Positions 30,530 to 64,000 of a DNA stretch of 64,000 bases are shown in pieces. The notes under the pieces are model-generated. The model ran no database searches, had not been told where the DNA came from, and saw only the letters and a program-made list of their open reading frames with translations. The position numbers and the translations under genes were made by a program. Source of the DNA: an uncultured Dehalococcoidia bacterium (GTDB lineage Bacteria > Chloroflexota > Dehalococcoidia > UBA6926); the NCBI GenBank assembly GCA_964405845.1, contig CAYOPL010000013.1, positions 305-64,304 of the forward strand. Reading direction: 5' to 3'. How positions within the stretch are numbered: position 1 is the first letter of the stretch; the number at the start of each line of letters is the position of its first letter.

Positions 30530-31303
30530 ATGTCTGAACAGAAGCCGATCGTAGCCCTCGGGGACGTGACGTTCGCGTACCCCGGGGGCACAGCGGTTCT
30601 TCGAGAGTTCTCCTGGGAGATGTCCGCCGGTGAATCGTGGGCAATCATCGGCCCGTCCGGGTGCGGCAAGACCACCCTGCTCTACATCCTTGCCGGCTTG
30701 CGCCTCCCTGATCAAGGCGATGTAATCGTCGCCGGAGAGCCCATCAGCGGCCCCCGCCGTGACATCGGCCTCATACTCCAGGATCACGGACTCTTGCCCT
30801 GGGAGACCGCCCTCAATAACGTCGGTATGGGCCTGCGCCTGCGAGGCGCCCCCGGGCGTGAATGGCGCTCAGAAGCGCAGTCATGGCTTGACCGTCTGCG
30901 GTTGGGTGAGTTTGCAAGGCGCTTTCCCAGCCAACTGTCCGGTGGGCAGAAGCAGCGCGTCGCCATCGCACGCACACTCGCAGTATCACCAACACTTTTG
31001 CTCATGGATGAACCGTTTAGCGCGCTTGACGCCCTGACCCGTGAGTCGCTGCAGCTCCTGGCCCTTGATCTTGGGATTGCGCGTGGCCGCAGCGCCGTTC
31101 TTATCACCCATGACATCAACGAGGCCGTCATGCTCGGCAACAAAATCCTGATTATGGGCGCGGGGCCGGATGCCCCGACAACAATTATCGAAAACCCGGG
31201 TGCAGGACGAGAGGGTTTCATCGGCTCTGACGACTTCAGGGAACTTGCCGCCAACGTGAGATCCAGGCTCAACACCAGCCCGGAAGCAGCCGCCGACAGA
31301 TGA
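30530..31303 (+). CDS. ABC transporter ATP-binding protein (NitT/TauT family)
   Basis: GPSGCGKTT, LSGGQKQRVAIAR, LLMDEPFSALD. Confidence 0.85.
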   Translation: MSEQKPIVALGDVTFAYPGGTAVLREFSWEMSAGESWAIIGPSGCGKTTLLYILAGLRLPDQGDVIVAGEPISGPRRDIGLILQDHGLLPWETALNNVGMGLRLRGAPGREWRSEAQSWLDRLRLGEFARRFPSQLSGGQKQRVAIARTLAVSPTLLLMDEPFSALDALTRESLQLLALDLGIARGRSAVLITHDINEAVMLGNKILIMGAGPDAPTTIIENPGAGREGFIGSDDFRELAANVRSRLNTSPEAAADR

Positions 31304-32082
31304 AAGAATCGGTGCTTGGCCGGGTGTGGCATCGCGCAGCATCACTCAGTGGCGGCGTCATCGCCGTACTGGCAGCGCTATTTGTGTGGCAGATTGTGTC
31401 ATGGATTGTAAACTCCAACATCCTGCCCGGCCCCGTGCCCGTCAGTCTGACGTTTATTGATCAACTCGATGAAGGCCTGCTGGGGCATGCGACGGTCAGC
31501 GCTTATCGCGTCGTGCTTGCCATCGCAATTTCGATTGCGATCGCGGCACCCCTAGGCCTCATACTCGGCACGAACGCCAGGCTCTATACGCTGTCCGCGC
31601 CCATCATCTATCTCAGCTACCCAATCCCCAAAATCGTCGCGCTCCCGGTGATTCTGCTCTTGCTCGGACTGGGCGACGCGAGCAAAGTGACGATGATCGC
31701 GCTCATCCTGTTCTTCCAGATTCTGATTCTCGTGCGCGACGAGGTCCGCACTGTGCGCCCGGAACTGGTCCTCTCGGTGCGTTCGCTCGGCGCGAATCGT
31801 CTCCAGCTCTTGCGCTTTGTCTTCATGCCTGCTTCGCTGCCCGGGCTCTTCACTGCCCTTCGTGTCAGCACTGGCGTTTCCATTGCCGTTCTGTTCTTCG
31901 TTGAGAGCTTCGGCACGCGGCAGGGACTTGGATACTACATCCTTGTTGAATCATGGGGGCGGCTGGCCTACGAGGAAATGTACGCAGGTGTGATAGCGAT
32001 GGCCCTGCTTGGATTGGGCGTCTACTACGCAGTTGACGGTATTGAACGCCGTCTGACCCGTTGGAATCGGGACGATCGATAG
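31300..32082 (+). CDS. ABC transporter permease (NitT/TauT family)
   Basis: 6 TM helices. 4-bp overlap with the ATPase gene. Confidence 0.8.
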   Translation: MKESVLGRVWHRAASLSGGVIAVLAALFVWQIVSWIVNSNILPGPVPVSLTFIDQLDEGLLGHATVSAYRVVLAIAISIAIAAPLGLILGTNARLYTLSAPIIYLSYPIPKIVALPVILLLLGLGDASKVTMIALILFFQILILVRDEVRTVRPELVLSVRSLGANRLQLLRFVFMPASLPGLFTALRVSTGVSIAVLFFVESFGTRQGLGYYILVESWGRLAYEEMYAGVIAMALLGLGVYYAVDGIERRLTRWNRDDR

Positions 32083-52345: not shown

Positions 52346-52778
52346 CGGCTAAGTCGTGCTCCGAGCGGGCCACGGTACTCACGGGCGGCTCTATCTGCCC
52401 GCGCTGCAATGTGACAACCGACCGATCCTGCGACCCGAAAGCATCGGCGATGTGCTGGGTCGCCTCTTCAAGGCGTGAGGTATCACCGCACGTGAAGATA
52501 TCAACGGCAGCGTAGCCGTGCTCCGGCCACGTATGAATACAGATGTGAGATTCGGCAATGATGACGACGCCGGTAACACCCTGGGGGCTGAACTGGTGAA
52601 ATGCGTGTCCGATAATCGTCGCGCCAATACGTCTCGCTGTGTCTATGAGCGTGGATTCAACGTTCTGCAGATCATCAAGCGCATTGGCATCACAATCGCG
52701 GAGTTCCACCAGCACATGCGTCCCTAGAGCATTCAATCTCACCTTCCCCCACATCAAGATTTTTGGCGCAAGCGCCAT
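52329..52778 (-). CDS. speH: S-adenosylmethionine decarboxylase proenzyme (small bacterial/archaeal SpeH type)
   Basis: GVVIIAESHICIHTWPEHGYAAVDIFTCG contains the self-processing E-S motif. Confidence 0.8.
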   Translation of the reverse strand: MALAPKILMWGKVRLNALGTHVLVELRDCDANALDDLQNVESTLIDTARRIGATIIGHAFHQFSPQGVTGVVIIAESHICIHTWPEHGYAAVDIFTCGDTSRLEEATQHIADAFGSQDRSVVTLQRGQIEPPVSTVARSEHDLAGVPGA

Positions 52779-52982
52779 TATACGGGCGGCGTTCGCGCCG
52801 AATCAATAGGATATCCACGCGCCTCGCGGCGAGTTCCCTCTAACAAGACGGCGGCGCGCTGCTGGTGCAGCGCGCCGCATCTCTTTGGCACTTTCCCCTA
52901 CCCTTGGGAAGCGCCGTTCCCCCATCCATCCTTTTTGCGCGAGGAGATGGCTATGGGAGAAGGAGGAGTGAAATCACTTTAC

Positions 52983-52996
52983 CGAACGTGCGTTCG
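52983..52996. promoter_or_regulatory. Palindrome CGAACG-tg-CGTTCG in the divergent speH / acyl-CoA dehydrogenase intergenic region
   Basis: Perfect 6-bp inverted repeat with a 2-bp spacer, read directly. Confidence 0.35.
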
Positions 52997-53133
52997 CTTG
53001 TCAACCCCTTTTTGGATGATTTGTTCGAAATCTCTCCAAATGGGTATTGCCCACAAGACATGGTCGGGGCATAGTAGCGGCGCGGACGGCGACTGACGCT
53101 CTGTGAACAGACGAGGAGAAGGGACGCGACGCC

Positions 53134-54324
53134 ATGGATTTCAGTTACTCCGAACAGGACGAGGCCCTGCGTAAAGAGGTGCGCGAGTTCGTGGAGGCCA
53201 ACTGGCACTCGCCCTACGAATCCCACATCAATTCCGTCTATTCCTACGACGTCGACACGCCGGAAGATGAGGTTCTCTTCCAGGAATTCACCCGCAAGCT
53301 CGCCGACAAGGGCTGGTACACCATGCACTGGCCCCGTGAGTACGGCGGGCAGGCCGTCCCCTTCACTACTCAGATCGCCTACCGCGAGGAGATGGCCTAT
53401 CGCGGCGCACCCATCGCGCAGCCCGGCTTTGAAGCGCCCATGCTCATGTTCCACGGCCAGCCCTGGCAGAGGGACTTCTTCCTGCCAAAGATTGCCAGCG
53501 GCGAGCTCATCTCATGGTCGCAGGGCTTCAGCGAGCCAAACGCGGGCGCGGACCTTGCAAACCTCCAGACTCGCGCCGTGCGCGACGGCGACGACTGGGT
53601 CGTGACCGGCCAGAAAATCTGGAACAGCCAAGGACATCATCCGTGGGTCGATTGGGGTCACTACCTTGTACGGACGGACCCGGACGCGCCGAAACACCGT
53701 GGCATCTCCTATCTCATCATTGATATGAACACTCCGGGCGTCGTCAAGCGGCCGCTGATGGACGCGCTTGGCCGCCGTCGCTGGAGCGAGATCTTCCTGG
53801 ACAATGTCCGCGTCCCCTCCCGTAACGTCATCGGCGAGGAGAATCGCGGCTGGTACGCTGCCATGACGACGCTTTCCTTTGAACGCTCGCAGATTGAAGC
53901 TCCGGCGCGGCGGCTGCGCGATCTTGAACGGTTCATCGACTACGCTCGTGAGGCTCGCATCAACGGTGGCCGGCTGATCGACCCCAAGCAGACGCGGCAT
54001 CTTCTTGCGGACGCCCGCATCCTCATTGAAACGGGCCGAATGCTCGCCCTTCAGGTGGCATCCATCCAGAGCAAGGGCGAGGTCCCGATGATGGAGGCGG
54101 CGTTCTCCAAGCTGTTCCATGACGAGATGACGCCCCGGGTGTATGAAACGATCGCGCGGATTTTAGGATCAGACTCGGCCATGACGGTCGGCGAGCCGCG
54201 AGCGCCTTTGGGCGGCTACCCCGCCGTCAACTCCTACCTGAGTTGGATGAACCGATTCGCCGGAGGCGGCCGTGAAATCCAGTTGAACATCATCGCCCAG
54301 CGCGGCCTCGGCCTTCCCCGCTAG
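53134..54324 (+). CDS. Acyl-CoA dehydrogenase (paralog 1)
   Basis: 396 aa. WSQGFSEPNAGADL...DDWVVTGQKIW ACAD motifs. C-terminal ...GGGREIQLNIIAQRGLGLPR. Confidence 0.85.
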   Translation: MDFSYSEQDEALRKEVREFVEANWHSPYESHINSVYSYDVDTPEDEVLFQEFTRKLADKGWYTMHWPREYGGQAVPFTTQIAYREEMAYRGAPIAQPGFEAPMLMFHGQPWQRDFFLPKIASGELISWSQGFSEPNAGADLANLQTRAVRDGDDWVVTGQKIWNSQGHHPWVDWGHYLVRTDPDAPKHRGISYLIIDMNTPGVVKRPLMDALGRRRWSEIFLDNVRVPSRNVIGEENRGWYAAMTTLSFERSQIEAPARRLRDLERFIDYAREARINGGRLIDPKQTRHLLADARILIETGRMLALQVASIQSKGEVPMMEAAFSKLFHDEMTPRVYETIARILGSDSAMTVGEPRAPLGGYPAVNSYLSWMNRFAGGGREIQLNIIAQRGLGLPR

Positions 54325-54384
54325 TCAGCACTTGCCCGCAACACATAGACGGGCGCATAGTAGCGGCGATTGGGGGGAGTGGCT

Positions 54385-56796
54385 ATGGCTACGGATACTG
54401 CGCCGTTGAGTGGACTTCGCGTGCTGGAAATCGCGGGAGAACTCATTGAGCCTGTCGGACGGCATCTCGTTGATCTCGGCGCAGACGTAACACTTATCGA
54501 GCCGCCGGGCGGCAGCCCGTCACGCCACATCGCTCCACAACCAACTCGCCCAACGACCGAACCCCGCAGCCTCTATTTCCTGCGGTTCAACCTCGGCAAA
54601 CGCAGCGTTGTTCTCGACCTCGAAACGGACGAGGGATTAAGCGTCCTGCGAGATTCACTGTTGCCGAACACGGACATCCTCATGACATCGTTCAACCAGC
54701 AGGAACTGGAGTCGCGCGGCATCGACTTCGCATCCCTTACGGCCATCAACCCTAACCTCATCCTGACCACCGTCACGCCGTACGGGCGCACGGGAATCCA
54801 CGCCGGGTTCGCGGGCAACGACTTCACCGCCGGGGCGGCGGGCGGCATGACGTTTATGGAGGGGGAGCGCGACGGCCTCCCGGCCGCGCAGCCCCACTAC
54901 CAGGGAGTGCAGATGACGGCGCTCCATGCGGCGTATGGAACACTTCTGGCGTGGTGGCACGTGCGGAACGGCGGACGCGGGCAGGAGGTGGATGTCTCCC
55001 TGCAGGATGTCGTGGCGCATGAGTACTTCAACCTGGTCTATTACGCTTCGTATGGCGAGATTGTTCAGCGCGTCGGCGGATTGAGCGGCGGACGCCCCAC
55101 CAACTACTTCCCCTGCTCCGACGGCTGGATTCTGATGTCCCTCATCCTGCCGCACCAGTGGAAGGCGTTTGCGGATTGGACTGAGGACCCGCTAATCATG
55201 GACGAGATGTTCCTTGACGCTGCGGTTCGCGCGGACGCTGTGGAGTTTCTCGATGAGCGCATGTCCGAGTTCACGCGGTCGATGACCGTGCAGGAATTCC
55301 TGGAAGGCTCCATCCCGCGGCGCATACCCGCCGGACCAGTCAACGACATTGTCGGATTCATCAACCATCCGCACACTATCGCCCGCAATGTCATGACAGA
55401 GGTGGATGACCCTATTATCGGCACGTATGCCACACAGGGCGCGCCGTTCAGGCTGAGCCGCACCCCATGGGAGATCAAGGGGCCTGCCCCAACCATCGGC
55501 CAGCACAACAATGATTTGGCGGCCATTTCAGCTCGCCCGCATGAGAACGGCCGGGTACAACCAGCAGACTCCACCGCCGCTGAACGTGCGCTGCCGCTTG
55601 AGGGTATTCGCATCGTCGATTTGACGAAATCGTGGGCGGGGCCGTACGGCGCTCGATACCTGGCTGATTTCGGCGCGGAGGTCATCCGAATCGAGTCCAC
55701 CAAGTTCCCTGAGGGTCGCGTGATCACCCAGAACGACCATGACGCATGGCTCCGCTCCAACACGATGTACGCGGAAATCAACCGCAACAAGTACTCAATC
55801 GCGCTTGACCTCCACTCTGAAGAGGGCAAGAACATCTTCAAGCGGTTGGTCGCCGAGAGCGACATCGTGCTGGAGAATTTCCATTACGCCACCCTGCCCC
55901 GCTGGGGGATGGCGTACGACGACCTCAGGAAGGTCAACCCACGCATCATCGTCCTCAGCGCCCCCGGCTACGGCTATGAGGGACCAATCCGCGACTACTT
56001 TGCCTATGGCGGATGCATCGGCGCGTTCGCAGGCATCTCAACGCTGTGGGGGCATGCCGACTCTGCGGTGAACGAGCGTCCCAAGCAGGCCTACACGGAC
56101 TTCGTGACGGCGGGCCATCTCGCCCTGTCCGTCATGGCGGCGCTGCACGAGCGCGAGGATTCCGGCGAGGGACAGCACGTCGAACTCACGCAGATCGACT
56201 CCGCCGTGGCGATGATGGGCACGGCCATCCTTGAACACACCATTAATGAAGAGACACCGCAGCCCATCGGCAACCGCAGCCCGCACGCCGCGCCGCAGGG
56301 GGTGTATGCGTGCATCGGCGTCGACAAATGGGGCGCCATTTCCATCGAATCTGACGAGGAATGGCAGGCGCTCGCCGGTCTCATGGGCAGCGCGCTGCCT
56401 GCCGATCTCCGCGAAAGATGCACGACTGCGGATGCACGCCGTGCCCTGCACGGTGAAATCGACGACGCCATCGGCGAGTGGGCGTCCACGCGCACACCCG
56501 GCCAAGTCATGCAGGCCTGTCAGAAAGTCGGCGTCAAGGCGGCCATCGTCGCGTCCGGCGAGGACCTGTACCACGATCCGCACCTGCGCTCGCGGGGCTA
56601 CGTCGTTGAAATCGACCATCCCTGGCCGGGCAAGCTCCAACACCCGGGCATGACCGTGCGGCTCACGGAGACACCGGGGCAGGTGCGCCTGCCCGCACCA
56701 CTCACCGGCCAACACACGGCAGAAATCGTGGAGCGCGTGCTTGGTATCAAGAATGACGAGGCAGAGGAACTAACAAAGGCCGGCGTGCTGGTCTAG
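54385..56796 (+). CDS. Tandem fusion of two family III (CaiB/BaiF) CoA-transferase domains
   Basis: Two LxGxRVL/IxDL N-terminal motifs: LSGLRVLEIAG near residue 15 and LEGIRIVDLTKSWAGP about residue 410. ATG at 54385 is preferred, with TTG at 54370 as an alternative, because a GGGGGGAG SD lies 7 nt upstream. Confidence 0.8.
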   Translation: MATDTAPLSGLRVLEIAGELIEPVGRHLVDLGADVTLIEPPGGSPSRHIAPQPTRPTTEPRSLYFLRFNLGKRSVVLDLETDEGLSVLRDSLLPNTDILMTSFNQQELESRGIDFASLTAINPNLILTTVTPYGRTGIHAGFAGNDFTAGAAGGMTFMEGERDGLPAAQPHYQGVQMTALHAAYGTLLAWWHVRNGGRGQEVDVSLQDVVAHEYFNLVYYASYGEIVQRVGGLSGGRPTNYFPCSDGWILMSLILPHQWKAFADWTEDPLIMDEMFLDAAVRADAVEFLDERMSEFTRSMTVQEFLEGSIPRRIPAGPVNDIVGFINHPHTIARNVMTEVDDPIIGTYATQGAPFRLSRTPWEIKGPAPTIGQHNNDLAAISARPHENGRVQPADSTAAERALPLEGIRIVDLTKSWAGPYGARYLADFGAEVIRIESTKFPEGRVITQNDHDAWLRSNTMYAEINRNKYSIALDLHSEEGKNIFKRLVAESDIVLENFHYATLPRWGMAYDDLRKVNPRIIVLSAPGYGYEGPIRDYFAYGGCIGAFAGISTLWGHADSAVNERPKQAYTDFVTAGHLALSVMAALHEREDSGEGQHVELTQIDSAVAMMGTAILEHTINEETPQPIGNRSPHAAPQGVYACIGVDKWGAISIESDEEWQALAGLMGSALPADLRERCTTADARRALHGEIDDAIGEWASTRTPGQVMQACQKVGVKAAIVASGEDLYHDPHLRSRGYVVEIDHPWPGKLQHPGMTVRLTETPGQVRLPAPLTGQHTAEIVERVLGIKNDEAEELTKAGVLV

Positions 56797-56813
56797 GAAA
56801 ACTTGGGGGAACC

Positions 56814-58004
56814 ATGGACTTCAGATTCACTGCCGAAGATCAGCAGTTGCGAGACGAGGTAAAGAACTTCGTCGAGAGCGAGTGGGACGCGCAAGGCATC
56901 GACTCGTTCAGCAACTCCGTCTATTCCTATGACGTCCATCACGTCGAAGACGACCGGCGCATCCACGAGTACACGAAGAAACTGGCAGACCGTGGCTGGT
57001 ACACCATGCACTGGCCGGAGGAGTTCGGCGGAGCGGGCGCTCCTCTGAGCAGGCAGTTGGCCTACCGCGAGGAGGCCGCCTATCGCGGCTCCCCCGTCAC
57101 CACGCCCACCTTCTTCGCCCACACCCTCATGTACTACGGGCAGGACTGGCAGAAGGAAGAAATACTCGGCAAGATCGCCAGGGGCGAGTTGATTAACTTC
57201 TCACAGGGGTTCAGCGAGCCGAACGCCGGCGCGGATCTCGGCAGCCTCCAGACCCGCGCCGTGCAGGACGGCGACGATTGGGTCATCACCGGCCAGAAAA
57301 TCTGGAACACCGGCGGCCACATGGCGGATATCGGCCACTATCTTGTCCGCACGGACCCGGACGCCCCCAAACACCGCGGCATCTCCTATTTCATCGTTGA
57401 TATGCACGACCCCGGAATCACCCTCAGGCCGCTATTTGACGCGCTCGGCCGCCAGCGATGGGTCGAGGTGTTCCTGGACGGCGCGCGTGTGCCCTCACGC
57501 AACCTGGTCGGTGAACTCAACCGCGGCTGGTACGCCGCCATGACGAACATGTCCTTCGAGCGTTCCAACGTTGAGGCGCCGTCATACCGCCTCCGCGACC
57601 TGGAGAATTTCCTGGACTTTGCCCGCGAAGCTCGCTTTTCGGACGGCACTACCATCCTTGACGATCCCATCGCCCGGCACGTGCTGGCGGATGCGCGCGT
57701 GCTCATCGAGATCGGGCGGATGATCTCCTATCAGGTGGCATGGATCCAGAGCAAGGGCGAGGTCCCCGCTATGGAGTCGGCCTTCTCCAAGCTGTTCCAC
57801 GATGAGATGACGCCGAACGTGTTCGGTGCCCTGAACCGGCTGCTGAGGGAGTCGGGCATCTTCAACGTTGGCGACCCGCGCGCCCCGATGAACGGCTACC
57901 CGCAGGTGAACTCCTACCTGAGCTGGATGAACCGCTTCGCCGGCGGCGGCCGTGAGATTGAGTTGAATATCATTGCGCAACGTGGCCTGGGCCTACCCCG
58001 GTAG
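56814..58004 (+). CDS. Acyl-CoA dehydrogenase (paralog 2, about 65% identical to paralog 1)
   Basis: Same length and motifs. Identical C-terminal tail ...GGGREIELNIIAQRGLGLPR. Confidence 0.85.
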   Translation: MDFRFTAEDQQLRDEVKNFVESEWDAQGIDSFSNSVYSYDVHHVEDDRRIHEYTKKLADRGWYTMHWPEEFGGAGAPLSRQLAYREEAAYRGSPVTTPTFFAHTLMYYGQDWQKEEILGKIARGELINFSQGFSEPNAGADLGSLQTRAVQDGDDWVITGQKIWNTGGHMADIGHYLVRTDPDAPKHRGISYFIVDMHDPGITLRPLFDALGRQRWVEVFLDGARVPSRNLVGELNRGWYAAMTNMSFERSNVEAPSYRLRDLENFLDFAREARFSDGTTILDDPIARHVLADARVLIEIGRMISYQVAWIQSKGEVPAMESAFSKLFHDEMTPNVFGALNRLLRESGIFNVGDPRAPMNGYPQVNSYLSWMNRFAGGGREIELNIIAQRGLGLPR

Positions 58005-58067
58005 GAGGTATACGTCCTCCATACTTTCCTACCTGAATCTCTCACCAACCCCCACTCAAACTCCAAA

Positions 58068-60590
58068 ATGGCCCGCACCCCTTACATCACGTGTAGTTCA
58101 TGCAGAGTCAGCATGCACAACGACGCGTATGGGTATCACAAGCACAACCCACGGCGAAAGCCAATACCGCGAGACACAACCGAGTGTTTAGCATGTCGTG
58201 GCACAGGCCTGGTACAAGGGGCTGGTTCTCAGGCTAACACCCTTGGATGGCTATTGGAGCATGGTCGAAGAATAAGTTGTGTGCGTTGTTTCGGGCAGGG
58301 ACGAGTGGGCACGGCCCATTCGCCGCGCTCTTCTCCGCGTGGTGGCGTGTCGATTCTTAAGCCTCAGGCTCAGGCAAACCCACCGGGCTTAACGCCGTCC
58401 GAACGCGAACGGCTGATGGAGGCCGTGGAGCAAGTAGTTACGGACGCCGAAAAAGAGGCGGAGGAGCAAAGGCGTCAGGCAGAAGAAAGACAGGCGGCGC
58501 GCGAACAAGGACAAACAGGGGAGCAGAAACGCACACCCAGATCACCATCAGCTGAATGGCTTCCTCAAGGCTTTCAAACAAACGCACAATGCGCACACGT
58601 GTCAAGCCGAGGATTACGTTGCTGGCGCAGAGCACAAATCGACTCGGAAATGTGCGCGGAACATACCGTGACCAAAACCGAGAAAGAGGCGCAAGAGCAG
58701 GAACATAGAGCAGAAGAGGAACGTACAGCACGCGAACAAAAGCAAGCAGAGGAGCGGTTATGGAATGAAGTAACCAGGCGTGCTGAATCCAGCTCACAGT
58801 CAGGATCTGAAGCAGACCAAGCAAAACCCCAAGAACGATTATGGGCCGAACTGCGTTATCAGGCAGAAGAGCGCTTGTGGGACGAAGCAGTCAGAGATGC
58901 CAGACGTAAGGGACGAGTCGGGCGCCTCTTTCGCCGAATCTTCCTCGCTCTACTGCTGATTCTTATCAGCGCCACGGCCATCTTGTTCCTTACTCAGACC
59001 CCGGTGGAAGACATAGTCGATTCGGTAAGGGGTTTCTGGGGCGACTCAGGCATTACCATTCCCGACGGTGAGTCAGAACAGCCCGACACCAACGGCACGG
59101 ATTCTGTTGCCCCTCCGGTAGTTCCCTCACCCACGGCAACGGCAACCCTAACTCGGACGCCCACGCCCACTGTTGCTCCAACGCCGACACCTGTCGCGGT
59201 ATCCCCATGGGCGGGTTTCATTATCACGTCGGAGACTCTTGGCAAGGACATTACAGACAGGCTTTCGGAAGAAGAGATGGCTTGTCTACGGTCTTCTAAT
59301 TCCGATGGATACTATGAGTATTTCCAGTCCGAGCCTATTGGTGTGCGGGTGAGTATGAATCCGCCCGTCCGCGATGTCACCGACTTGCCAGCACTGGCTG
59401 AATGCCTATCACAGGAAAGCGCGCAGCATCTCAATCTTGCAATCGCCATATTCCATGATCCGAGTCTGGCCCCACCCACTCCGACCGCCATACCAACTCC
59501 TGCTCCAACTCCCGGGCCCACCTCCGCGCCTACAGCAACAGCGACGCCACGGCCGACGGCAACGCCAAGCCCTCATCTCCTCCACCTCAATGAGAAGAAA
59601 TATGTGTTGGAACTGATCAACAATGCGCGCAGAGCAAACGGGCTTACACCGGTAGAACTCGGAGAAAATATCGCCGCGCAGTTACATGTCGAAAGCGCTC
59701 TCAGGAATTGCGTTTCATCACATTGGGGCTTGGATGGCCTAAAGCCCGGCATGCGCTACAGCCTCGCGGGTGGATATCAGTCGAATGGGGAGGTTGCGTC
59801 CGGATTGGATTATTGCTACAGAGCAAGAGACCGGGTAACACCGATAGGAAGCGTGCGCCAAAGAATCCTGCAGGCTCATCAGGGATTGATGGGCAGCCCA
59901 GGACATCGAGCCAGTATCCTGAGAGAGACTCACCGTAAGGTGAATATCGGGCTGGCATGGGATCGCTACAACCTCTACGTGGTCCAACACTTTGAAGGCG
60001 GCCACGTGGAGTATGAGGAGTTGCCAGAGATTTCAGACGGGATTCTTCAGGTGAAGGGGAGCTTGACTTCAGGTTTTCGTTTTGCAGGCGATAATCCGCT
60101 TGGACTTCAAATCTACTATGACCCGCCCCCCCATAACCTCACACGCGGCCAGGTTTCAAGAACGTACTGCTACGACAGTGGCCGCCAAGTCGCTGCTCTG
60201 CGTCCACCTCTATCAGGGGGATACTACTATCCAACAGACTCATTCACGCAGAACCTGAAATTCTGCCCAAGCCCTTATGATGTTCCCTCCGCGACTCAAC
60301 CTGCGCGTTCAGGAGAAGAAGCTCACCGTATTTGGGCAACCGTCAAGGCCGAAAGTGAAAGACTGGGGTCAGTTCCTGTAACCGTGCCGTGGATTACTGC
60401 CAGCAGACTACAAACGCAGGGCAGGAATTTTGAGGCCCGGGCGTCAATACAAGATGTGTTGCGGCAGCGCGGATCAGGCGTTTATTCCATCATTGTTTGG
60501 GGTGATTTAGCTGGCCATGATGAATCAGTCGTCATCTCCCAATATTCAATTTTCCACCAAATCGACCCACCTACAACATATGACCCTTAA
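58068..60590 (+). CDS. Multidomain type II membrane protein: N-terminal DnaJ-type CxxCxGxG zinc finger, repetitive coiled coil, TM helix, PT-rich linkers, CAP/SCP (PR-1-like) domain and a C-terminal Cys-containing domain. Lies in a low-GC island.
   Basis: CLACRGTG and CVRCFGQG, plus CxxC at residues 9-12. AEERLW repeated three times. TM helix IFLALLLILISATAILFL. CAP motifs HQGLMGSPGHRASIL and VGLAWDRYNLYVVQHFEG. GC is about 10 points below the flanking genes. Confidence 0.6.
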   Translation: MARTPYITCSSCRVSMHNDAYGYHKHNPRRKPIPRDTTECLACRGTGLVQGAGSQANTLGWLLEHGRRISCVRCFGQGRVGTAHSPRSSPRGGVSILKPQAQANPPGLTPSERERLMEAVEQVVTDAEKEAEEQRRQAEERQAAREQGQTGEQKRTPRSPSAEWLPQGFQTNAQCAHVSSRGLRCWRRAQIDSEMCAEHTVTKTEKEAQEQEHRAEEERTAREQKQAEERLWNEVTRRAESSSQSGSEADQAKPQERLWAELRYQAEERLWDEAVRDARRKGRVGRLFRRIFLALLLILISATAILFLTQTPVEDIVDSVRGFWGDSGITIPDGESEQPDTNGTDSVAPPVVPSPTATATLTRTPTPTVAPTPTPVAVSPWAGFIITSETLGKDITDRLSEEEMACLRSSNSDGYYEYFQSEPIGVRVSMNPPVRDVTDLPALAECLSQESAQHLNLAIAIFHDPSLAPPTPTAIPTPAPTPGPTSAPTATATPRPTATPSPHLLHLNEKKYVLELINNARRANGLTPVELGENIAAQLHVESALRNCVSSHWGLDGLKPGMRYSLAGGYQSNGEVASGLDYCYRARDRVTPIGSVRQRILQAHQGLMGSPGHRASILRETHRKVNIGLAWDRYNLYVVQHFEGGHVEYEELPEISDGILQVKGSLTSGFRFAGDNPLGLQIYYDPPPHNLTRGQVSRTYCYDSGRQVAALRPPLSGGYYYPTDSFTQNLKFCPSPYDVPSATQPARSGEEAHRIWATVKAESERLGSVPVTVPWITASRLQTQGRNFEARASIQDVLRQRGSGVYSIIVWGDLAGHDESVVISQYSIFHQIDPPTTYDP

Positions 60591-60724
60591 GCAGTATCCT
60601 CGCTTGCACTAAAGCTAATCACCTCTTTTCCACACAACGCGGCAATCAGCGGGAACCAGCGCTTGTACGTTGTCCAGAACTTCTGTTAGTGCAAACACGA
60701 GAATGTTCGCGATGCTAGCACGGC

Positions 60725-60756
60725 GTGACAATCTATCTTGCTTGTGTCACTGTGTC
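60725..60756. promoter_or_regulatory. Conserved upstream motif GTGACAATCT..TTG..CTTGTG.CACTGTGTC (copy A), 28 nt upstream of the MaoC-N gene
   Basis: Shares about 26 of 33 positions with 61906-61938. Contains the inverted half-sites GTGACA...TGTCAC. Confidence 0.45.
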
Positions 60757-60783
60757 CGCAATATCGGGGGTTGGGGGTGAACC

Positions 60784-61317
60784 ATGACATCTGAGCCTGA
60801 AACCTATATCACGCCGGAGGTGGAGGCGTATATCGGGACGGAGAGTCCGCCGCTTGTCTCGCCGCCGGTGTCGGAGAGCGAGATACGCCGGTTCGCGATG
60901 GCAGCCTATTGGCCGGAGGTGCCGCCTCGTCGTTTCTGGGACGCCGACTACGCCAAGACCACCCGCTTCGGCGGCATTGTCGCGCCGGATGAGTTCAACC
61001 CGTTCGGCTGGATGGTCGGACGCGCCCACATCGGCCCGCAGCCCACGCACATCGACGAAGCGCAGGGCGAGCTTGAAGAGGCGCGCAACCTGCGACCGCC
61101 CGGCGCGCCGGAAAGATATCTCTACGCCGGCTCCTCGTCCGAGTACCACGCGCCGATCCGCCCCGGCGATGTCATCACGTCCATCCTGAAATTTACGGAG
61201 GTCTACGAACGGCGCGGCGGGCTGGGCCTCATGCTCTTCTACGCCGTCGAGGAGCGGATGACTAACCAGAACGGCGAGCTGGTCCGCGTATTCAAGACCA
61301 ACAACATCCTGTATTAG
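60784..61317 (+). CDS. MaoC-like dehydratase N-terminal (FAS1-like hotdog) domain protein, a split-hydratase subunit
   Basis: 177 aa. Hotdog-fold N-domain pattern, adjacent to a MaoC C-type hotdog gene. Confidence 0.6.
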   Translation: MTSEPETYITPEVEAYIGTESPPLVSPPVSESEIRRFAMAAYWPEVPPRRFWDADYAKTTRFGGIVAPDEFNPFGWMVGRAHIGPQPTHIDEAQGELEEARNLRPPGAPERYLYAGSSSEYHAPIRPGDVITSILKFTEVYERRGGLGLMLFYAVEERMTNQNGELVRVFKTNNILY

Positions 61318-61445
61318 GGAGTAAGCGCGGCGGTACACGGTGGAGGCGCAATGGGTTCTTTAGATTCCTCGGCTGCGCTCGGAGTGACAGATACGATGAG
61401 TTCCGGCTGTCACCGGAATGAGGGCATGAGGTTGGAGGCGAAACA

Positions 61446-61871
61446 ATGACTGTTTACTGGCAAGACGTTGAGGATGGATCGGAGATTCCGGAGTTCGCCC
61501 GCACCACAACGTTGATGAACTGGAATCGCTGGGCATCAGTGAACGATGAGTTCGTGCCCATGCACATGGACGATGACGAGGCGCGCGCCAACGGACAGCA
61601 GGCCGCGTTCGGCGAGGGTCCTCTGCGCTATTCGTACCTGCACAGCGCACTGCGCGAGTGGATCGGCGATGATGGCGACATCGTGTTCGTCAACGCCCAG
61701 TACCGCGGCATCAACTACAAGGGCGACACCCTGACCGTCTCGGGTCGCGTTACCGGCAAGCGTGAGGAAAACGGCCGCCATCTCGTAGACGTGGACCTCG
61801 CCATCAACAACCAGCGCGGCGAGACCGTCACGCCCGGCAACGCCACCGTCGCCCTGCCAAGCAGAGAATAG
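61446..61871 (+). CDS. MaoC-like (R)-specific enoyl-CoA hydratase domain protein
   Basis: 141 aa. Hotdog hydratase-type sequence NDEFVPMHMDDDEARANGQQAAFGEGPLRYSYLHSAL. Confidence 0.7.
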   Translation: MTVYWQDVEDGSEIPEFARTTTLMNWNRWASVNDEFVPMHMDDDEARANGQQAAFGEGPLRYSYLHSALREWIGDDGDIVFVNAQYRGINYKGDTLTVSGRVTGKREENGRHLVDVDLAINNQRGETVTPGNATVALPSRE

Positions 61872-61905
61872 ACACCACACACCTGCTCACGCGGCACAGG
61901 CCCGC

Positions 61906-61938
61906 GTGACAATCTTGCCCCGCTTGTGCCACTGTGTC
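61906..61938. promoter_or_regulatory. Conserved upstream motif (copy B) preceding the thiolase-like gene
   Basis: gtgacaatcttgccccgcttgtgccactgtgtc read directly. Preceded by the hairpin cacgcgg-cacaggc-ccgcgtg at 61888-61908. Confidence 0.45.
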
Positions 61939-61978
61939 GGCAGCGGGTGAGAGCGCCCGCATGGGGGAGGAATTGTCT

Positions 61979-63151
61979 ATGACTACCGCAAGTGACCTTT
62001 CGCGCGTAGCGGCAATCATCGGCGTCGATGAGTCCGATGAGATGGGCCACGTGCCGCACAAGTCGTCTATGCAGCACCACGCGGAGGCGGCGGACAACGC
62101 CCTTCGCGACGCCGGGCTCACGCTGGACGACGTCGATGCGTTGTTCTGCGCCGGCGTCGGTACGGTCTCCGTCGCCGAATACCTCGGCATCGTGCCCAAG
62201 TACACGGACACAACCTCCATCGGCGGCTCCTCGTTCCTCGCGCACGTCGAGCATGCTATGGCGGCCATCAACGCCGGCCTCATCGATGTCGCTCTGATCA
62301 CCCACGGCGAGGCGGGGCGTTCATCCCGCGCTCGAGCGGGCCGCGATCCAACGGCGGCAGGCTCCCAGTTTGAGGCGCCCTACGGCATGATCGGCGCGCC
62401 GGTGGCGTACGCCATGGCATGCAGCCGCTACATGCACATGTACGGCGCGGAGCGCGTGCGGCAGGGCATGGCGGACGTGTCCATCGCCACGCGCAAGTGG
62501 GCGCTCCAGAATCCCAAGTCGTTCGTCAATCACCCCACGTGGATCGGTCCAGCCGATGTCGGCTATGAGGACTACCATGAATCGCGCTGGATCGCGTGGC
62601 CGTTTCATATCATGGACTGCTGCCTGGTGACGGACGGCGGCGGCGCATGCGTCGTCGTCTCGGCGGACGTTGCCCGAAACGCCAAGAAGAAGCCTGCGTG
62701 GATCCTCGGCTCCGCGGAAGGCCACGACCACCAGATCATCAGCCAGATGCCTGACCTCACCCGCACCATCGCCCATGAGACCGGGCCGCGCGCGCTTGAG
62801 ATGGCGGGCGTCACACACGATGACATCGACCTCGCGATGATCTACGACTCTTTCACCTACACGGTGCTGACAACGCTGGAGAGCCTGGGATTCTGCGGGC
62901 CGGGTGAAGCGCCTGATTTCGTGGCTAACCTGCGGACAGGCCCCGGCGGCGACTTTCCCATGAACACGAGCGGCGGCGGTCTATCCTACGCCCACACTGG
63001 CATGTACGGCATGTTCCTGCTCATCGAGGCTACGCGGCAGCTGCGTGGCGAGAGCGGGGATCGGCAGGTTGAGGATTGCAACCTGTCGCTCGTGCACGGT
63101 ACCGGCGGCGAGCTCTCCTCCACTGCAACGCTGGTCCTCAGCAATTCATAG
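61979..63151 (+). CDS. Thiolase-like protein of the SCP-x/Ltp (nonspecific lipid-transfer protein) type. Start uncertain: in-frame ATGs at 61934, 61961 and 61979.
   Basis: Thiolase fold with an N-terminal Cys region (LFCAGVGTV) and C-terminal ...SGGGLSYAHTGMYG...VHGTGGELSS. 61979 is chosen for its GGGAGG SD and to avoid the upstream motif. Confidence 0.7.
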   Translation: MTTASDLSRVAAIIGVDESDEMGHVPHKSSMQHHAEAADNALRDAGLTLDDVDALFCAGVGTVSVAEYLGIVPKYTDTTSIGGSSFLAHVEHAMAAINAGLIDVALITHGEAGRSSRARAGRDPTAAGSQFEAPYGMIGAPVAYAMACSRYMHMYGAERVRQGMADVSIATRKWALQNPKSFVNHPTWIGPADVGYEDYHESRWIAWPFHIMDCCLVTDGGGACVVVSADVARNAKKKPAWILGSAEGHDHQIISQMPDLTRTIAHETGPRALEMAGVTHDDIDLAMIYDSFTYTVLTTLESLGFCGPGEAPDFVANLRTGPGGDFPMNTSGGGLSYAHTGMYGMFLLIEATRQLRGESGDRQVEDCNLSLVHGTGGELSSTATLVLSNS

Positions 63152-63162
63152 GAGAACACACA

Positions 63163-63591
63163 ATGACAACTCAACCACCGGCCGGCCCGCCAAGGATCCT
63201 GCCAACTCCGACCCAGGAAAACGACTTCTATTGGGAGAAGTGCAAGGAGCATGAGTTGTGGCTTCGGAGCTGCAACACTTGCGACGAAACGTACTTCTAT
63301 CCGCGCGATCTGTGCCCGACGTGCCACTCACGCGATACGACGTGGGTACAGGCGAGCGGGCGAGGCGAGGTTCATGCCTACGCCGTCGTCCATCGTCCTC
63401 CCGCGCCTGCATTCGCAGAAGAAGTTCCCTTCATCACAGCGCTTATCAAGCTGGAGGAGGGCCCAATCCTGCCGACACGCATCGTCGGCGTGGAGCCCGT
63501 GCCTGACGCCGTCAGCATCGGCATGACCGGCCAGATTGAATTCGAAGACGCCAGCGAGACCATCAGCCTGCCAGTGTTCAGACCGGGGTAG
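63163..63591 (+). CDS. DUF35-type OB-fold/zinc-ribbon protein (thiolase partner)
   Basis: Zn-ribbon CNTCDETYFYPRDLCPTCHS followed by an OB-fold region. Gene order thiolase-DUF35 is typical. Confidence 0.7.
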   Translation: MTTQPPAGPPRILPTPTQENDFYWEKCKEHELWLRSCNTCDETYFYPRDLCPTCHSRDTTWVQASGRGEVHAYAVVHRPPAPAFAEEVPFITALIKLEEGPILPTRIVGVEPVPDAVSIGMTGQIEFEDASETISLPVFRPG

Positions 63592-64000
63592 GCGGCGGGC
63601 AGCCAGACTTGTTTTGCTTTTTGAAGCCCTCCTGACTGTTCCAGATTTCGGTTTGGCGGGTCTTGGGGGGATGCATCGCTGTCGGTTCCTGTCTGTTCGA
63701 TAGATCGGTTTGGCGCATTCGGGAGATCGCGTTCCGGGGGGCGAATCACCATTCTGGTCCGTCCGAGCCGGTCTCCGGAGCCTGTGCGCGCAGGGGACGC
63801 CTGCCGCTGAGCGGAGCTGCCGCGCCGACAGGTGTCCGCTCGGGGTGGGCGCGGGCCGAGGTTGTGGCATCGGCCATGAGCCCTCCCCCGCCGAGCTCGT
63901 TAGAGGCAGCGAGGGTTCGTCCCTCGCCCGCGTCACGCTCTTCGGCATGAGGGGCGGTTTCCGTCCTCGTACAGCTGCGCTGCCACCTCGCAGCCGTACG

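What the first reader, a model, noticed from the sequence alone, without database searches (positions are those of the whole stretch)
53134..63591. beta-oxidation-like cluster resembling bulky/branched side-chain degradation modules
Gene content and order: acyl-CoA dehydrogenase (ACAD) 1; a fused double CaiB/BaiF family III CoA-transferase; ACAD 2 (about 65% identical to ACAD 1); then, after an inserted island, a MaoC N-type hotdog, a MaoC C-type hotdog (together a split R-hydratase like ChsH1/ChsH2 or HadAB), an SCP-x/Ltp2-like thiolase, and a DUF35 OB-fold/Zn-ribbon partner. This is the component set used for steroid or isoprenoid side-chain shortening (igr-type) and for anaerobic aromatic/alkyl-succinate beta-oxidation (Bbs-type). 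Family III CoA-transferases are typical of bile-acid, carnitine and benzylsuccinate pathways. Both ACADs have an atypical C-terminus, GGGREI(Q/E)LNIIAQ, where the canonical catalytic-base Glu of the YEGT motif appears to be replaced.
Basis: inference. Interest (0 to 1): 0.55.

Follow-up and report, generated by a model that had tools for sequence, protein, structure and literature searches.

The report
Acyl-CoA side-chain cleavage operon, aldolase-type
A sponge/coral-associated Dehalococcoidia bacterium carries a compact seven-gene operon that most likely shortens a bulky carboxylic acid by dehydrogenation, hydration and aldol-type cleavage, using a "thiolase" that lacks the thiolase cysteine and is probably mis-named in databases.

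Summary
The cluster is a seven-gene, same-strand unit. It holds two acyl-CoA dehydrogenases (ACADs), a fused family III CoA-transferase, a split MaoC hydratase, a thiolase-fold protein and a DUF35 partner. A 2.8-kb strain-variable insertion interrupts it, and housekeeping genes bound it.

Three refinements change the reading:
- The "thiolase" has Gly at the nucleophile position and Tyr-Asp-Ser-Phe where thiolases have His-Asp-Cys/Ala-Phe. Its closest characterised relatives, and those of its DUF35 partner, are the steroid side-chain retro-aldolases Sal and Ltp2. No 3-hydroxyacyl-CoA dehydrogenase is in the cluster. The best model is therefore ACAD, then hydratase, then retro-aldolase, not thiolytic beta-oxidation.
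- The odd ACAD C-terminus is the ChsE4/IVD/LCAD arrangement, with the catalytic Glu moved to helix G (E250, E249).
- The CoA-transferase is a BbsE-like inactive half fused to a BbsF-like active half.

Its active-site combination (Tyr304, Ser306, His354) matches neither Ltp2 nor Sal. No beta-type ACAD subunit was found. The substrate is unknown. I class it as a new variant of a known kind, of moderate interest.

The parts
53134..54324 (+). ACAD1, a 396-aa alpha-type acyl-CoA dehydrogenase. The predicted catalytic base is E250 (codon 53881-53883) in LSFER on helix G. The C-terminus FAGGGREIQ has Gly at the MCAD Glu376 position.
   Evidence: Pfam matches to three ACAD domains. Best solved relative is 4x28_A, ChsE4/FadE26 (E 4e-59), with LNHER aligned to LSFER and FGGGTNEVQ aligned to FAGGGREIQ. 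The 1ivh match offset puts E250 at IVD E254 (PMC11153573). Codons checked.
54385..56796 (+). Fused double family III CoA-transferase of 803 aa (the ORF opens at TTG 54370). The N-terminal half is BbsE-like and has no catalytic Asp (YQGVQM, 54898-54915). The C-terminal half is BbsF-like and has the catalytic Asp, D572 (codon 56098-56100).
   Evidence: Two CoA_transf_3 stretches. PDB matches: C-half to 9fn0_B at 1.8e-66 and N-half to 9fn0_A at 2.8e-42. The halves are 25% identical. D572 is invariant in 111 of 111 full-length sequences aligned (the window protein plus 110 homologues), with no Asp at the N-half position.
56814..58004 (+). ACAD2, a 396-aa paralogue 66% identical to ACAD1. The predicted catalytic base is E249 (codon 57558-57560).
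   Evidence: It is the only ACAD kept in the coral MAG locus L011.
58004..60781 (+). Strain-variable insertion, not part of the pathway. It carries an 840-aa ORF (58068-60590) for a membrane-anchored, Pro/Thr-rich protein with a CAP/YkwD domain.
   Evidence: Absent in L007 and L011; different content in L002, L005, L006 and L010; homologues in L003, L004 and L008 are only 40-60% identical. Lower GC content. CAP domain at E 2e-4 and YkwD at 1e-8. No flanking repeats.
60784..61317 (+). MaoCN, a 177-aa non-catalytic hot-dog subunit (PF13452) with a degenerate motif (PDEFNPFG, no His).
   Evidence: A MaoCN gene lies next to a MaoCC-family gene in 33 of 33 metagenome contigs of at least 5 kb.
61446..61871 (+). 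MaoCC, a 141-aa catalytic hot-dog subunit. Its hydratase-2 motif is altered to NDEFVPMH: E35 (61548-61550) sits at the catalytic Asp position and H40 (61563-61565) is the catalytic His.
   Evidence: Alignment with HadB. In the family alignment H40 is invariant and D34/E35 are at least 90% conserved, and the canonical SGDDNPIH of P0263 aligns in register. AlphaFold model with pLDDT 90.8. Foldseek TM-scores normalised to query length (TMq) of 0.76-0.88 to PhaJ, ChsH1 and HadB.
61979..63151 (+). Thiolase-fold protein of 390 aa, predicted to be a retro-aldolase. Residue numbers below use the 405-aa ORF that opens at GTG 61934. G98 (62225-62227) replaces the thiolase nucleophile Cys. The YDSF motif (62843-62854) contains Y304. 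H354 is at 62993-62995.
   Evidence: PDB matches: 4u4e 7e-134, CtSal 9myr 2.5e-49, TcLtp2 6ok1 5e-46, BbsB 1e-25, thiolase 7yvy 7e-24. G97, G98, Y304, D305, F307, Y352, H354 and Y358 are invariant in 73 relatives. The same motifs occur in 117-120 of the 120 best database hits.
63163..63591 (+). DUF35 partner of 142 aa, with a C-x2-C-x10-C-x2-C zinc ribbon and an OB fold.
   Evidence: Pfam zf-ChsH2 plus OB_ChsH2_C. Best solved relatives are TcChsH2-DUF35 6ok1_B (2.6e-25) and CtShy-DUF35 9myr_B (1.3e-22). Zinc-ribbon motif checked. Adjacent to the thiolase-fold gene in most of the 80 related genome loci.

Best explanation
This is a catabolic operon that removes a two- or three-carbon unit from a carboxylic acid whose beta-carbon is hindered or bulky. 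It has no 3-hydroxyacyl-CoA dehydrogenase step and no thiolysis.

Proposed steps (all inferred from sequence unless stated):
1. The fused CoA-transferase activates the free acid by CoA transfer from a donor thioester such as succinyl-CoA, or from the acetyl-/propionyl-CoA the pathway itself releases. It has one active site per chain: the Asp572 half is catalytic and the BbsE-like half is structural.
2. ACAD1 and/or ACAD2 make the 2-enoyl-CoA. Both have a ChsE4-like wide-pocket architecture with the catalytic Glu on helix G.
3. The MaoCN-MaoCC heterodimer adds water to give the 3-hydroxyacyl-CoA.
4. [quoted passage not shown] The products are an aldehyde or ketone plus acetyl- or propionyl-CoA. 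Tyr304 acts as the base on the beta-hydroxyl. His354 (with Ser306) stabilises the enolate. His354, Tyr352 or Tyr358 acts as the proton donor.

The substrate is unknown. Candidates are sterol- or hopanoid-type side chains, alicyclic acids with a ring beta-carbon, or branched lipids from the host. The organism is a small-genome Dehalococcoidia lineage found in sponge and coral metagenome-assembled genomes.
For: Shown by sequence and comparison:
- The gene set and order are conserved in 9-10 related genomes (thiolase-fold protein at least 86% identical). Intergenic gaps are at most about 110 nt where there is no insertion (L007). Unrelated genes bound the cluster: speD/speE upstream, and fpg/fur downstream in L007.
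- No SDR or other 3-hydroxyacyl-CoA dehydrogenase is in the cluster or among the ORFs scanned across most of the 64-kb window.
- The thiolase-fold protein has Gly98 at the nucleophile position and YDSF where true thiolases (7yvy, BbsB) have HDAF. The Tyr is the catalytic base shared by Ltp2 (YDHF) and Sal (YDCY) (PMC12329534). These residues are invariant in 73 relatives and in the 120 best hits.
- Both this protein and its DUF35 partner score far better against the Sal and Ltp2 aldolase complexes than against BbsAB or archaeal thiolase complexes.
- A 77%-identical homologue sits in crotonase-ACAD-thiolase-fold-DUF35 order, again with no dehydrogenase.
- MaoCN and MaoCC are adjacent in 33 of 33 contigs. 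In 3 of those 33 contigs the pair lies near a thiolase-fold gene that has Gly at the nucleophile position and a YDxF motif (two of the window's own family, one Sal-like YDCF); five others carry the Ser-for-Cys HDAF class.
- The ACADs align best to ChsE4, with the Glu in register and the ChsE4 Pro89 position kept (PMC11153573).
- The transferase Asp is invariant in the C-half only.
Against: - There is no biochemical evidence for any member of this thiolase-fold family.
- Its presumed acid/oxyanion residues match neither characterised aldolase. Ser306 occupies the position of Sal Cys304, and a C304S mutant of CtSal is inactive. His354 replaces Ltp2 Tyr344 (PMC12329534).
- In more distant relatives the thiolase-fold/DUF35 pair most often neighbours an SDR. 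In Thermomicrobiales it sits with two SDRs, an alpha/beta ACAD pair and a MaoC gene, which looks like a complete beta-oxidation set.
- Both ACADs are alpha-type and lack the QxxGGxG FAD-adenosine loop, yet no beta subunit gene is nearby.
- The MaoCC motif has Glu in place of the canonical Asp.
- The insertion may split the cluster into two transcripts. The promoter/terminator scan was uninformative.
Confidence: 0.55

Rival explanations
1. This is ordinary thiolytic beta-oxidation of a bulky acyl-CoA. The thiolase-fold protein is a working thiolase despite lacking the canonical Cys, and the 3-hydroxyacyl-CoA dehydrogenase is encoded elsewhere in the genome.
For: NCBIfam NF004811 'acetyl-CoA acetyltransferase' scores 428 bits, just above its 421-bit cut-off, and public names are 'thiolase' or 'acetyl-CoA acetyltransferase'. 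The thiolase GHP histidine is kept as H354. An SDR is the commonest neighbour in distant relatives, and the Thermomicrobiales clusters hold two SDRs plus alpha/beta ACADs and a MaoC gene.
Against: No Cys occurs at the nucleophile position in any of 73 relatives (Gly98 is invariant), and none at the acid/base position. The first residue of the HDxF motif is Tyr, as in the aldolases. To my knowledge every characterised thiolase uses a Cys nucleophile. CtSal, with Gly at this position, cannot perform thiolysis (PMC12329534). No dehydrogenase is in the cluster or among the ORFs scanned in the window.
Confidence: 0.13
2. This is a true orthologue of the steroid igr/Sal systems, dedicated to sterol or bile-acid side-chain removal and feeding on host sponge or coral sterols.
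For: The best solved relatives of four of the six enzyme components (both ACADs, the thiolase-fold protein and its DUF35 partner) are steroid side-chain enzymes: ChsE4, Sal/Ltp2 and ChsH2/Shy DUF35. The close clade includes sponge and coral MAGs.
Against: - Identity to the steroid enzymes is low, and the MaoC subunits do not match ChsH1/ChsH2 by sequence.
- There is no alpha/beta ACAD pair, DUF35 is not fused to the hydratase, and the active site differs from both Ltp2 and Sal.
- No P450, KstD, Ksh or Hsa-type genes are in the window.
- The genomes are only about 1.9 Mb.
- The family is very widespread in free-living marine Chloroflexota.
Confidence: 0.15
3. This is a Bbs-like pathway for aryl- or alkyl-succinates formed by anaerobic fumarate addition.
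For: Both transferase halves have BbsE and BbsF as their best solved relatives, in that order. A thiolase-fold plus DUF35 pair is present, as in BbsAB.
Against: There is no BbsH-type crotonase and no BbsCD SDR pair. BbsB and BbsA are much weaker matches than Sal/Ltp2 and their DUF35 partners. BbsB keeps HDAF whereas this protein has YDSF. No glycyl-radical synthase is in the window.
Confidence: 0.05
4. The module runs in the reverse, biosynthetic direction: aldol condensation of an acyl-CoA with an aldehyde, dehydration, then enoyl-CoA reduction by the ACADs, to build a branched lipid.
For: The aldolase, dehydratase and ACAD reactions are all reversible in principle. NCBIfam's second-best ACAD match is an acryloyl-CoA reductase.
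Against: A CoA-transferase fits activation of an imported acid. No reductant-coupling (ETF/bifurcating) or carrier-protein genes are adjacent. The closest characterised relatives are all catabolic.
Confidence: 0.04

Closest known systems
M. tuberculosis / T. curvata igr module (ChsE1-ChsE2, ChsH1-ChsH2, Ltp2)
   Same: It has the same logic: ACAD, heteromeric MaoC hydratase, Cys-less thiolase-fold aldolase bound to a DUF35 domain, and no dehydrogenase. The Tyr base of the YDxF motif and the Gly at the nucleophile position are conserved. The DUF35 has the same C4 zinc ribbon, and TcChsH2-DUF35 is its best solved match.
   Different: The two ACADs are both alpha-type, closest to ChsE4 rather than ChsE1/E2, with no beta subunit. 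DUF35 is a separate gene rather than fused to ChsH2. The motif is YDSF plus His354 instead of YDHF plus Tyr344. The hydratase subunits are not recognisably ChsH1/ChsH2 by sequence. A CoA-transferase is present, and there is no cyp125. The lineage is Dehalococcoidia.
Comamonas testosteroni Shy-Sal bile-acid C5 side-chain hydratase/aldolase (PDB 9MYR; PMC12329534)
   Same: CtSal is the closest functionally characterised relative of the thiolase-fold protein (E 2.5e-49), and CtShy-DUF35 matches the partner (1.3e-22). They share GG(A/S)S at the nucleophile site and the Tyr base.
   Different: Sal uses Cys304 (YDCY) as its acid, with Gln352. Here those positions are Ser306 and His354, and C304S kills Sal. 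Shy is a single MaoC fused to DUF35 with a C3H1 zinc site. Here the hydratase is split, DUF35 is free and the zinc site is C4.
PDB 4U4E, a structural-genomics 'thiolase' (from memory: Sphaerobacter thermophilus)
   Same: It belongs to the same family (E 7e-134) with identical GGSSF, YDSF and LSYxHxGMYGM motifs.
   Different: I found no function reported for it. In the Sphaerobacter-type locus the homologous gene sits with SDRs, an alpha/beta ACAD pair, a MaoC gene and an ADP-forming acyl-CoA synthetase.
Benzylsuccinate CoA-transferase BbsEF (PDB 9FN0)
   Same: It is the best solved match to each half, in E-then-F order. The E-like half lacks the catalytic Asp and the F-like half keeps it.
   Different: Here the two subunits are one 803-aa chain. 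The rest of the bbs operon (BbsG, H, C, D and a Cys thiolase BbsB) is not mirrored. Scores are far below the NCBIfam equivalog cut-offs.
ChsE4-ChsE5 (FadE26-FadE27) alpha2beta2 ACAD, and IVD/LCAD
   Same: The catalytic Glu is on helix G with Gly at the MCAD Glu376 position. The C-terminal GGG(T/R)xE(V/I)Q...LGLPR tail is the same as ChsE4, and the ChsE4 Pro89 position is kept (PMC11153573).
   Different: No beta subunit gene was found. There are two 66%-identical alpha paralogues, and one of them is dispensable in L011.
IpfD-IpfE of the ibuprofen pathway
   Same: It is a thiolase-like protein plus a partner that releases propionyl-CoA from a ring-attached side chain (PMC9195938). That the partner is a DUF35 protein is from memory.
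   Different: It was not compared by sequence here. It acts after ring dioxygenation, and no ACAD or hydratase is involved.

Membership tests
Thiolase (acetyl-CoA acetyltransferase; the public annotation) | Nucleophilic Cys in the N-terminal domain (CxSG) | tested here: not met
   Gly98 aligns with the Cys of thiolase 7yvy and is invariant in 73 relatives.
Thiolase (acetyl-CoA acetyltransferase; the public annotation) | Acid/base Cys (the C-terminal CxG motif, or the HDCF motif in SCP2-type thiolases) | tested here: not met
   The motif is YDSF and the C-terminal motif is GTGG. There is no Cys at either site.
Thiolase (acetyl-CoA acetyltransferase; the public annotation) | His of the GHP motif (oxyanion hole) | tested here: met
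   H354 aligns with the GHP His of 7yvy and BbsB and is invariant.
Thiolase-fold retro-aldolases (Ltp2 / Sal) | Thiolase fold with the nucleophile Cys replaced by Gly | tested here: met
   PF22691 match at E 6e-61. G97-G98 align with the GG of CtSal and TcLtp2.
Thiolase-fold retro-aldolases (Ltp2 / Sal) | Catalytic base Tyr as the first residue of the YDxF/Y motif | tested here: met
   Y304 aligns with TcLtp2 Y294 and CtSal Y302 and is invariant (PMC12329534).
Thiolase-fold retro-aldolases (Ltp2 / Sal) | Known general acid: Tyr344 (Ltp2) or Cys304 (Sal) | tested here: not met
   His354 sits at the Tyr344/Gln352 position and Ser306 at the His/Cys304 position. This is a third combination of residues.
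Thiolase-fold retro-aldolases (Ltp2 / Sal) | Complex with a DUF35 zinc-ribbon/OB domain | tested here: inconclusive
   The DUF35 gene starts 12 nt downstream and pairs with the thiolase-fold gene in most of 80 loci. Its best PDB hits are the aldolase-bound DUF35 domains. Physical binding was not testable.
Thiolase-fold retro-aldolases (Ltp2 / Sal) | Retro-aldol activity on a 3-hydroxyacyl-CoA | not testable with these tools
   This needs an enzyme assay.
igr-type steroid side-chain operon | Adjacent alpha and beta ACAD genes (alpha2beta2 enzyme) | tested here: not met
   Both ACADs are alpha-type. A beta-type query from L052 finds only weak N-terminal similarity to them and nothing else in the window or in L002-L011.
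igr-type steroid side-chain operon | Heteromeric MaoC hydratase: one catalytic and one non-catalytic hot-dog subunit | tested here: met
   A PF13452 gene plus a PF01575-type gene with E35/H40. They are adjacent in 33 of 33 contigs. Heteromer formation is inferred from this.
igr-type steroid side-chain operon | DUF35 fused to the hydratase subunit (ChsH2) | tested here: not met
   DUF35 is a separate 142-aa gene after the thiolase-fold gene.
igr-type steroid side-chain operon | Linkage to steroid uptake or ring-degradation genes | tested here: not met
   None were found among the ORFs scanned across most of the 64-kb window. The whole genome was not searchable.
bbs operon (benzylsuccinate beta-oxidation) | Heteromeric BbsEF family III CoA-transferase | tested here: inconclusive
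   BbsE and BbsF are the best solved matches to the two halves, with the same Asp pattern, but the halves are fused and score far below equivalog cut-offs.
bbs operon (benzylsuccinate beta-oxidation) | BbsH crotonase, BbsCD SDR pair and BbsB Cys thiolase | tested here: not met
   No ECH or SDR genes are in the cluster. The BbsB model scores 102 bits against a 750-bit cut-off. The motif is YDSF, not HDAF.
ACADs with the catalytic base on helix G (IVD / LCAD / ChsE4 type) | Glu on helix G, with Gly/Ala at the MCAD Glu376 position | tested here: met
   E250 of LSFER aligns with the Glu of ChsE4's LNHER, and by match offset with IVD E254. The C-terminus is FAGGGREIQ (PMC11153573). That the ChsE4 Glu is residue 247 and is the catalytic base is from memory.

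The most novel reading that the evidence does not exclude
The thiolase-fold/DUF35 pair represents a third catalytic class of thiolase-fold retro-aldolases, with a Tyr base, a His and a Ser in place of the Ltp2 Tyr/His or Sal Tyr/Cys sets. It would be a large family in marine Chloroflexota and Binatia that databases call acetyl-CoA acetyltransferase. Together with alpha-only ChsE4-like ACADs, a single-chain BbsEF-type CoA-transferase and a split hydratase, it would form a dehydrogenase-free, CoA-recycling module. Such a module would let SAR202-like and sponge-symbiotic Dehalococcoidia clip side chains from sterically hindered alicyclic or isoprenoid acids.
Probability: 0.35. Interest if true: 0.65.

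Novelty: new variant of a known kind. Interest (0 to 1): 0.5.

Why it matters
If the aldolase reading holds, a very large protein family would be re-annotated. The 120 best database hits all carry the signature, and about 7,900 scored hits have E at or below 1e-20. These proteins are currently labelled acetyl-CoA acetyltransferase or thiolase.

The family would also add a third active-site solution to the thiolase-fold aldolases, whose two known forms were described only in 2019 and 2025. A crystal structure (4U4E) already exists for mechanistic work.

Ecologically, it offers a concrete and testable route by which marine and sponge-associated Dehalococcoidia could attack carboxylic acids that normal beta-oxidation cannot process, because the beta-carbon is tertiary or part of a ring. 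From general knowledge, this relates to the proposed role of SAR202-type bacteria in degrading recalcitrant alicyclic organic matter.

It also flags two architectural variants for study: alpha-type ACADs without a beta partner, and single-chain BbsEF-like transferases.

Tried and rejected
- **tRNA and Rfam scans of the window:** nothing found.
- **Promoter/terminator scan of 52700-64000:** counts equalled the shuffled expectation, so it says nothing about operon structure.
- **Repeat search around the insertion:** no target-site duplication or inverted repeats, only Pro/Thr-codon repeats inside the ORF.
- **Single-sequence AlphaFold model of MaoCN:** unusable (pLDDT 36.8), so its fold could not be compared with ChsH2 or HadA. 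MaoCN also has no PDB sequence match.
- **Foldseek of the MaoCC model:** it cannot separate ChsH1, HadB, PhaJ and NodN-like hydratases; TM-scores normalised to query length (TMq) are all 0.76-0.88.
- **Neighbour census of distant thiolase-fold/DUF35 pairs:** contexts are heterogeneous. SDR accounted for 10, MFS 7, SurE 6 and Fe-ADH 5 of 128 proteins, with no ACAD, ECH or MaoC enrichment. Guilt by association outside the close clade is therefore weak, and it partly favours the rival thiolase reading.
- **Pimeloyl-CoA dehydrogenase (PimC):** rejected as the ACAD identity. It is the best NCBIfam hit but scores 175 bits against a 624-bit cut-off.
- **Alpha-methylacyl-CoA racemase:** rejected as the identity of the transferase. 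These are far weaker PDB matches (about 1e-18) than the transferases.
- **Literature:** searches for BbsEF structure papers and for the ChsE4 Glu247 statement found no usable open text. A SAR202/sponge search gave nothing specific.

Full report
**1. Observation**

Pfam and NCBIfam confirm the following:
- two three-domain acyl-CoA dehydrogenases (ACAD1 and ACAD2);
- one chain with two CoA_transf_3 domains (E 2e-179);
- a PF13452 hot-dog protein (MaoCN);
- a weak PF01575 hot-dog protein (MaoCC);
- a Thiolase_C_1 protein (E 6e-61);
- a protein with zf-ChsH2 plus OB_ChsH2_C domains (DUF35).

ACAD1 and ACAD2 are 66% identical. Homologue lengths indicate the real starts: ATG 54385 for the transferase, ATG 61979 for the thiolase-fold protein and ATG 63163 for DUF35. 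Residue numbers for the thiolase-fold protein below use the 405-aa ORF from 61934; subtract 15 for the 390-aa protein.

**2. Boundaries, organism and the insertion**

- Upstream lie divergently oriented speD and speE, a TPP enzyme and uvrD.
- In the related locus L007 the genes after DUF35 are fpg, fur and a metal ABC transporter. The unit therefore has seven genes.
- A genome scan found the thiolase-fold gene at 86-98% identity in ten Dehalococcoidia MAGs. These include a sponge MAG (SB0661_bin_39), a coral MAG (Plut_88869) and several complete chromosomes of about 1.9 Mb.
- In those genomes the order ACAD1, transferase, ACAD2, MaoCN, MaoCC, thiolase-fold, DUF35 is kept.
- Window 58004-60781 corresponds to about 47 nt in L007, and L011 also has no insert there. 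Other strains carry unrelated or fast-diverging content at this spot: homologues of the 840-aa CAP-domain ORF are only 40-60% identical, against 86-97% for the flanking enzymes. The 'island' is thus a strain-variable insertion. It has no flanking repeats.
- L011 lacks ACAD1 altogether.

**3. The 'thiolase'**

By sequence, the best solved relatives are as follows:

| PDB entry | Protein | E-value |
|---|---|---|
| 4U4E | uncharacterised structural-genomics 'thiolase' | 7e-134 |
| 9MYR | CtSal, steroid side-chain aldolase | 2.5e-49 |
| 6OK1 | TcLtp2, steroid side-chain aldolase | 5e-46 |
| 7PXP | BbsB | 1e-25 |
| 7YVY | a true thiolase | 7e-24 |

The alignments show three things:
- Gly98 sits where thiolases have the nucleophilic Cys.
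- The motif is Tyr304-Asp-Ser306-Phe where BbsB and 7YVY have His-Asp-Ala-Phe, Ltp2 has YDHF and Sal has YDCY.
- His354 sits where thiolases have the GHP His, Ltp2 has Tyr344 and Sal has Gln352.

The published work on Sal and Ltp2 identifies that Tyr as the catalytic base. It identifies Tyr344 (Ltp2) or Cys304 (Sal) as the acid, and states that a Gly at the nucleophile position precludes thiolysis (PMC12329534).

G97, G98, Y304, D305, F307, Y352, H354 and Y358 are invariant in 73 relatives of at least 50% identity. The same motifs occur in 117-120 of the 120 best hits of a 5.8-billion-protein search. Those hits are named 'acetyl-CoA acetyltransferase' or 'thiolase' by their sources.

The DUF35 partner has a C-x2-C-x10-C-x2-C ribbon. 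Its best solved relatives are the DUF35 domains bound to Ltp2 (2.6e-25) and Sal (1.3e-22).

**4. The other enzymes**

*ACADs.* The ACADs match ChsE4/FadE26 best (4X28_A, E 4e-59). LSFER aligns with ChsE4's LNHER, and FAGGGREIQ...LGLPR aligns with FGGGTNEVQ...LGLPR. The match offset to IVD puts E250 at IVD Glu254. IVD and LCAD are the classical ACADs with the base on helix G (PMC11153573). The missing YEGT glutamate is therefore a relocation, not a loss. Both proteins lack the QxxGGxG loop and so look like alpha subunits of alpha2beta2 ACADs. However, a beta-type query finds no partner in the window or in neighbouring loci.

*CoA-transferase.* The halves are 25% identical. The N-half matches BbsE best (2.8e-42) and the C-half matches BbsF best (1.8e-66). 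The catalytic Asp (D572) is invariant in 111 of 111 full-length sequences aligned (the window protein plus 110 homologues), while the equivalent N-half position never holds Asp. This fused architecture is common in Chloroflexota, Binatia and Tectomicrobia.

*Hydratase.* MaoCC carries NDEFVPMH, with Glu35 at the canonical Asp position and an invariant His40. Its AlphaFold model (pLDDT 90.8) matches R-hydratase hot-dog structures generically. A MaoCN gene flanks a MaoCC-family gene in 33 of 33 metagenome contigs of at least 5 kb, which argues for an obligate heteromer.

**5. Mechanism**

The cluster encodes CoA activation, alpha,beta-dehydrogenation, hydration and a Cys-less thiolase-fold enzyme, but no 3-hydroxyacyl-CoA dehydrogenase. 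None was found among the ORFs scanned across most of the 64-kb window either. The igr and Shy-Sal systems have the same gap, because there the hydroxyacyl-CoA is cleaved directly by retro-aldol chemistry.

Supporting context:
- A 77%-identical homologue lies in crotonase-ACAD-thiolase-fold-DUF35 order, also without a dehydrogenase.
- A 60%-identical transferase lies next to a 396-aa ACAD and a MaoCN/MaoCC pair.
- In 3 of the 33 metagenome contigs, the MaoCN-MaoCC pair lies near a thiolase-fold gene with Gly at the nucleophile position and a YDxF motif; five others carry a Ser-for-Cys HDAF class.

I therefore favour an ACAD, hydratase, retro-aldolase module that releases acetyl- or propionyl-CoA and an aldehyde or ketone (confidence 0.55).

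**6. Evidence against, and open points**

- The presumed acid/oxyanion residues (Ser306, His354) match neither characterised aldolase, and Sal C304S is inactive.
- In more distant relatives the pair is usually isolated. Its commonest neighbour is an SDR.
- Thermomicrobiales clusters contain two SDRs, an alpha/beta ACAD pair, a MaoC gene and an ADP-forming acyl-CoA synthetase. That keeps an unconventional thiolase role alive.
- The alpha-only ACADs are unexplained.
- The substrate cannot be inferred. Nothing in the window points specifically to sterols.

**7. Comparison and verdict**

The module works like the igr and Shy-Sal systems. It fails membership of igr (no alpha/beta ACAD pair, free DUF35, different active site). 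It fails membership of bbs (no crotonase, no SDR pair, no Cys thiolase). It also fails the definition of a thiolase.

I class it as a new variant of a known kind: a Dehalococcoidia version of the aldolytic side-chain cleavage module, with a distinct Tyr/Ser/His active-site signature and a single-chain BbsEF-like transferase. Interest is moderate (0.5). The most novel reading not excluded by the evidence is a third catalytic class of thiolase-fold aldolases widespread in marine Chloroflexota. I give that reading a probability of about 0.35.

Noticed in passing
window 58004-60781 (ORF 58068-60590): A strain-variable insertion sits between ACAD2 and MaoCN. It encodes an 840-aa protein with N-terminal CxxC pairs, a charged coiled region, a TM helix, Pro/Thr-rich linkers and a CAP/YkwD domain. 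Its homologues in sister genomes are only 40-60% identical, while the flanking enzymes are 86-97% identical. Other strains carry unrelated genes at the same spot, and a second variable spot lies between MaoCC and the thiolase-fold gene.
   Followed up: partly
L011 (coral MAG), L009 and L073: L011 lacks ACAD1: speD is followed directly by the transferase. L009 and L073 have lost the upstream half of the cluster, and giant ORFs (1871 and 1282 aa) lie there instead. The cluster is therefore being remodelled within the clade.
   Followed up: partly
L050, L055-L057, L062, L068-L070, L078, L080, L081; also L093: A subclade of the thiolase-fold family has covarying changes: Ser99 to Cys and Ser306 to Ala (GGCSF plus YDAF). 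In most of the subclade loci where the partner gene was detected, DUF35 lies upstream of the thiolase-fold gene.
   Followed up: no
L113, L117, L125, L131 (metagenome contigs): Next to MaoCN-MaoCC pairs lies a different thiolase-like class with Ser at the nucleophile position (ENASATG) while keeping HDAF and GHP. L140 shares the HDAF and GHP motifs, but its nucleophile region did not align.
   Followed up: no
L052 (Sphaerobacter sp.), L066, L075: Thermomicrobiales relatives place the thiolase-fold/DUF35 pair in a larger set. The set comprises an alpha ACAD, a beta ACAD, a MaoC with the canonical GDHQYIH motif, an ADP-forming acyl-CoA synthetase, a metallophosphoesterase, two long SDRs, DinB and an MBL-fold protein.
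   Followed up: partly
window 52851-52878: A perfect 12-bp GC-rich hairpin lies in the divergent intergenic region between speD and ACAD1. Its function is unknown.
   Followed up: no
window 8505-13931 (- strand): Four tandem MFS transporter genes.
   Followed up: no
window 25479-32082: A cluster in the order TetR regulator, UbiD decarboxylase, UbiA prenyltransferase, UbiX-type flavoprotein, NMT1-type binding protein and ABC transporter.
   Followed up: no
window 16880-18046: A protein with CrtC N-terminal and lipocalin-like domains (carotenoid 1,2-hydratase-like). An ECF sigma factor and a DUF5667 protein follow at 18896-20886.
   Followed up: no
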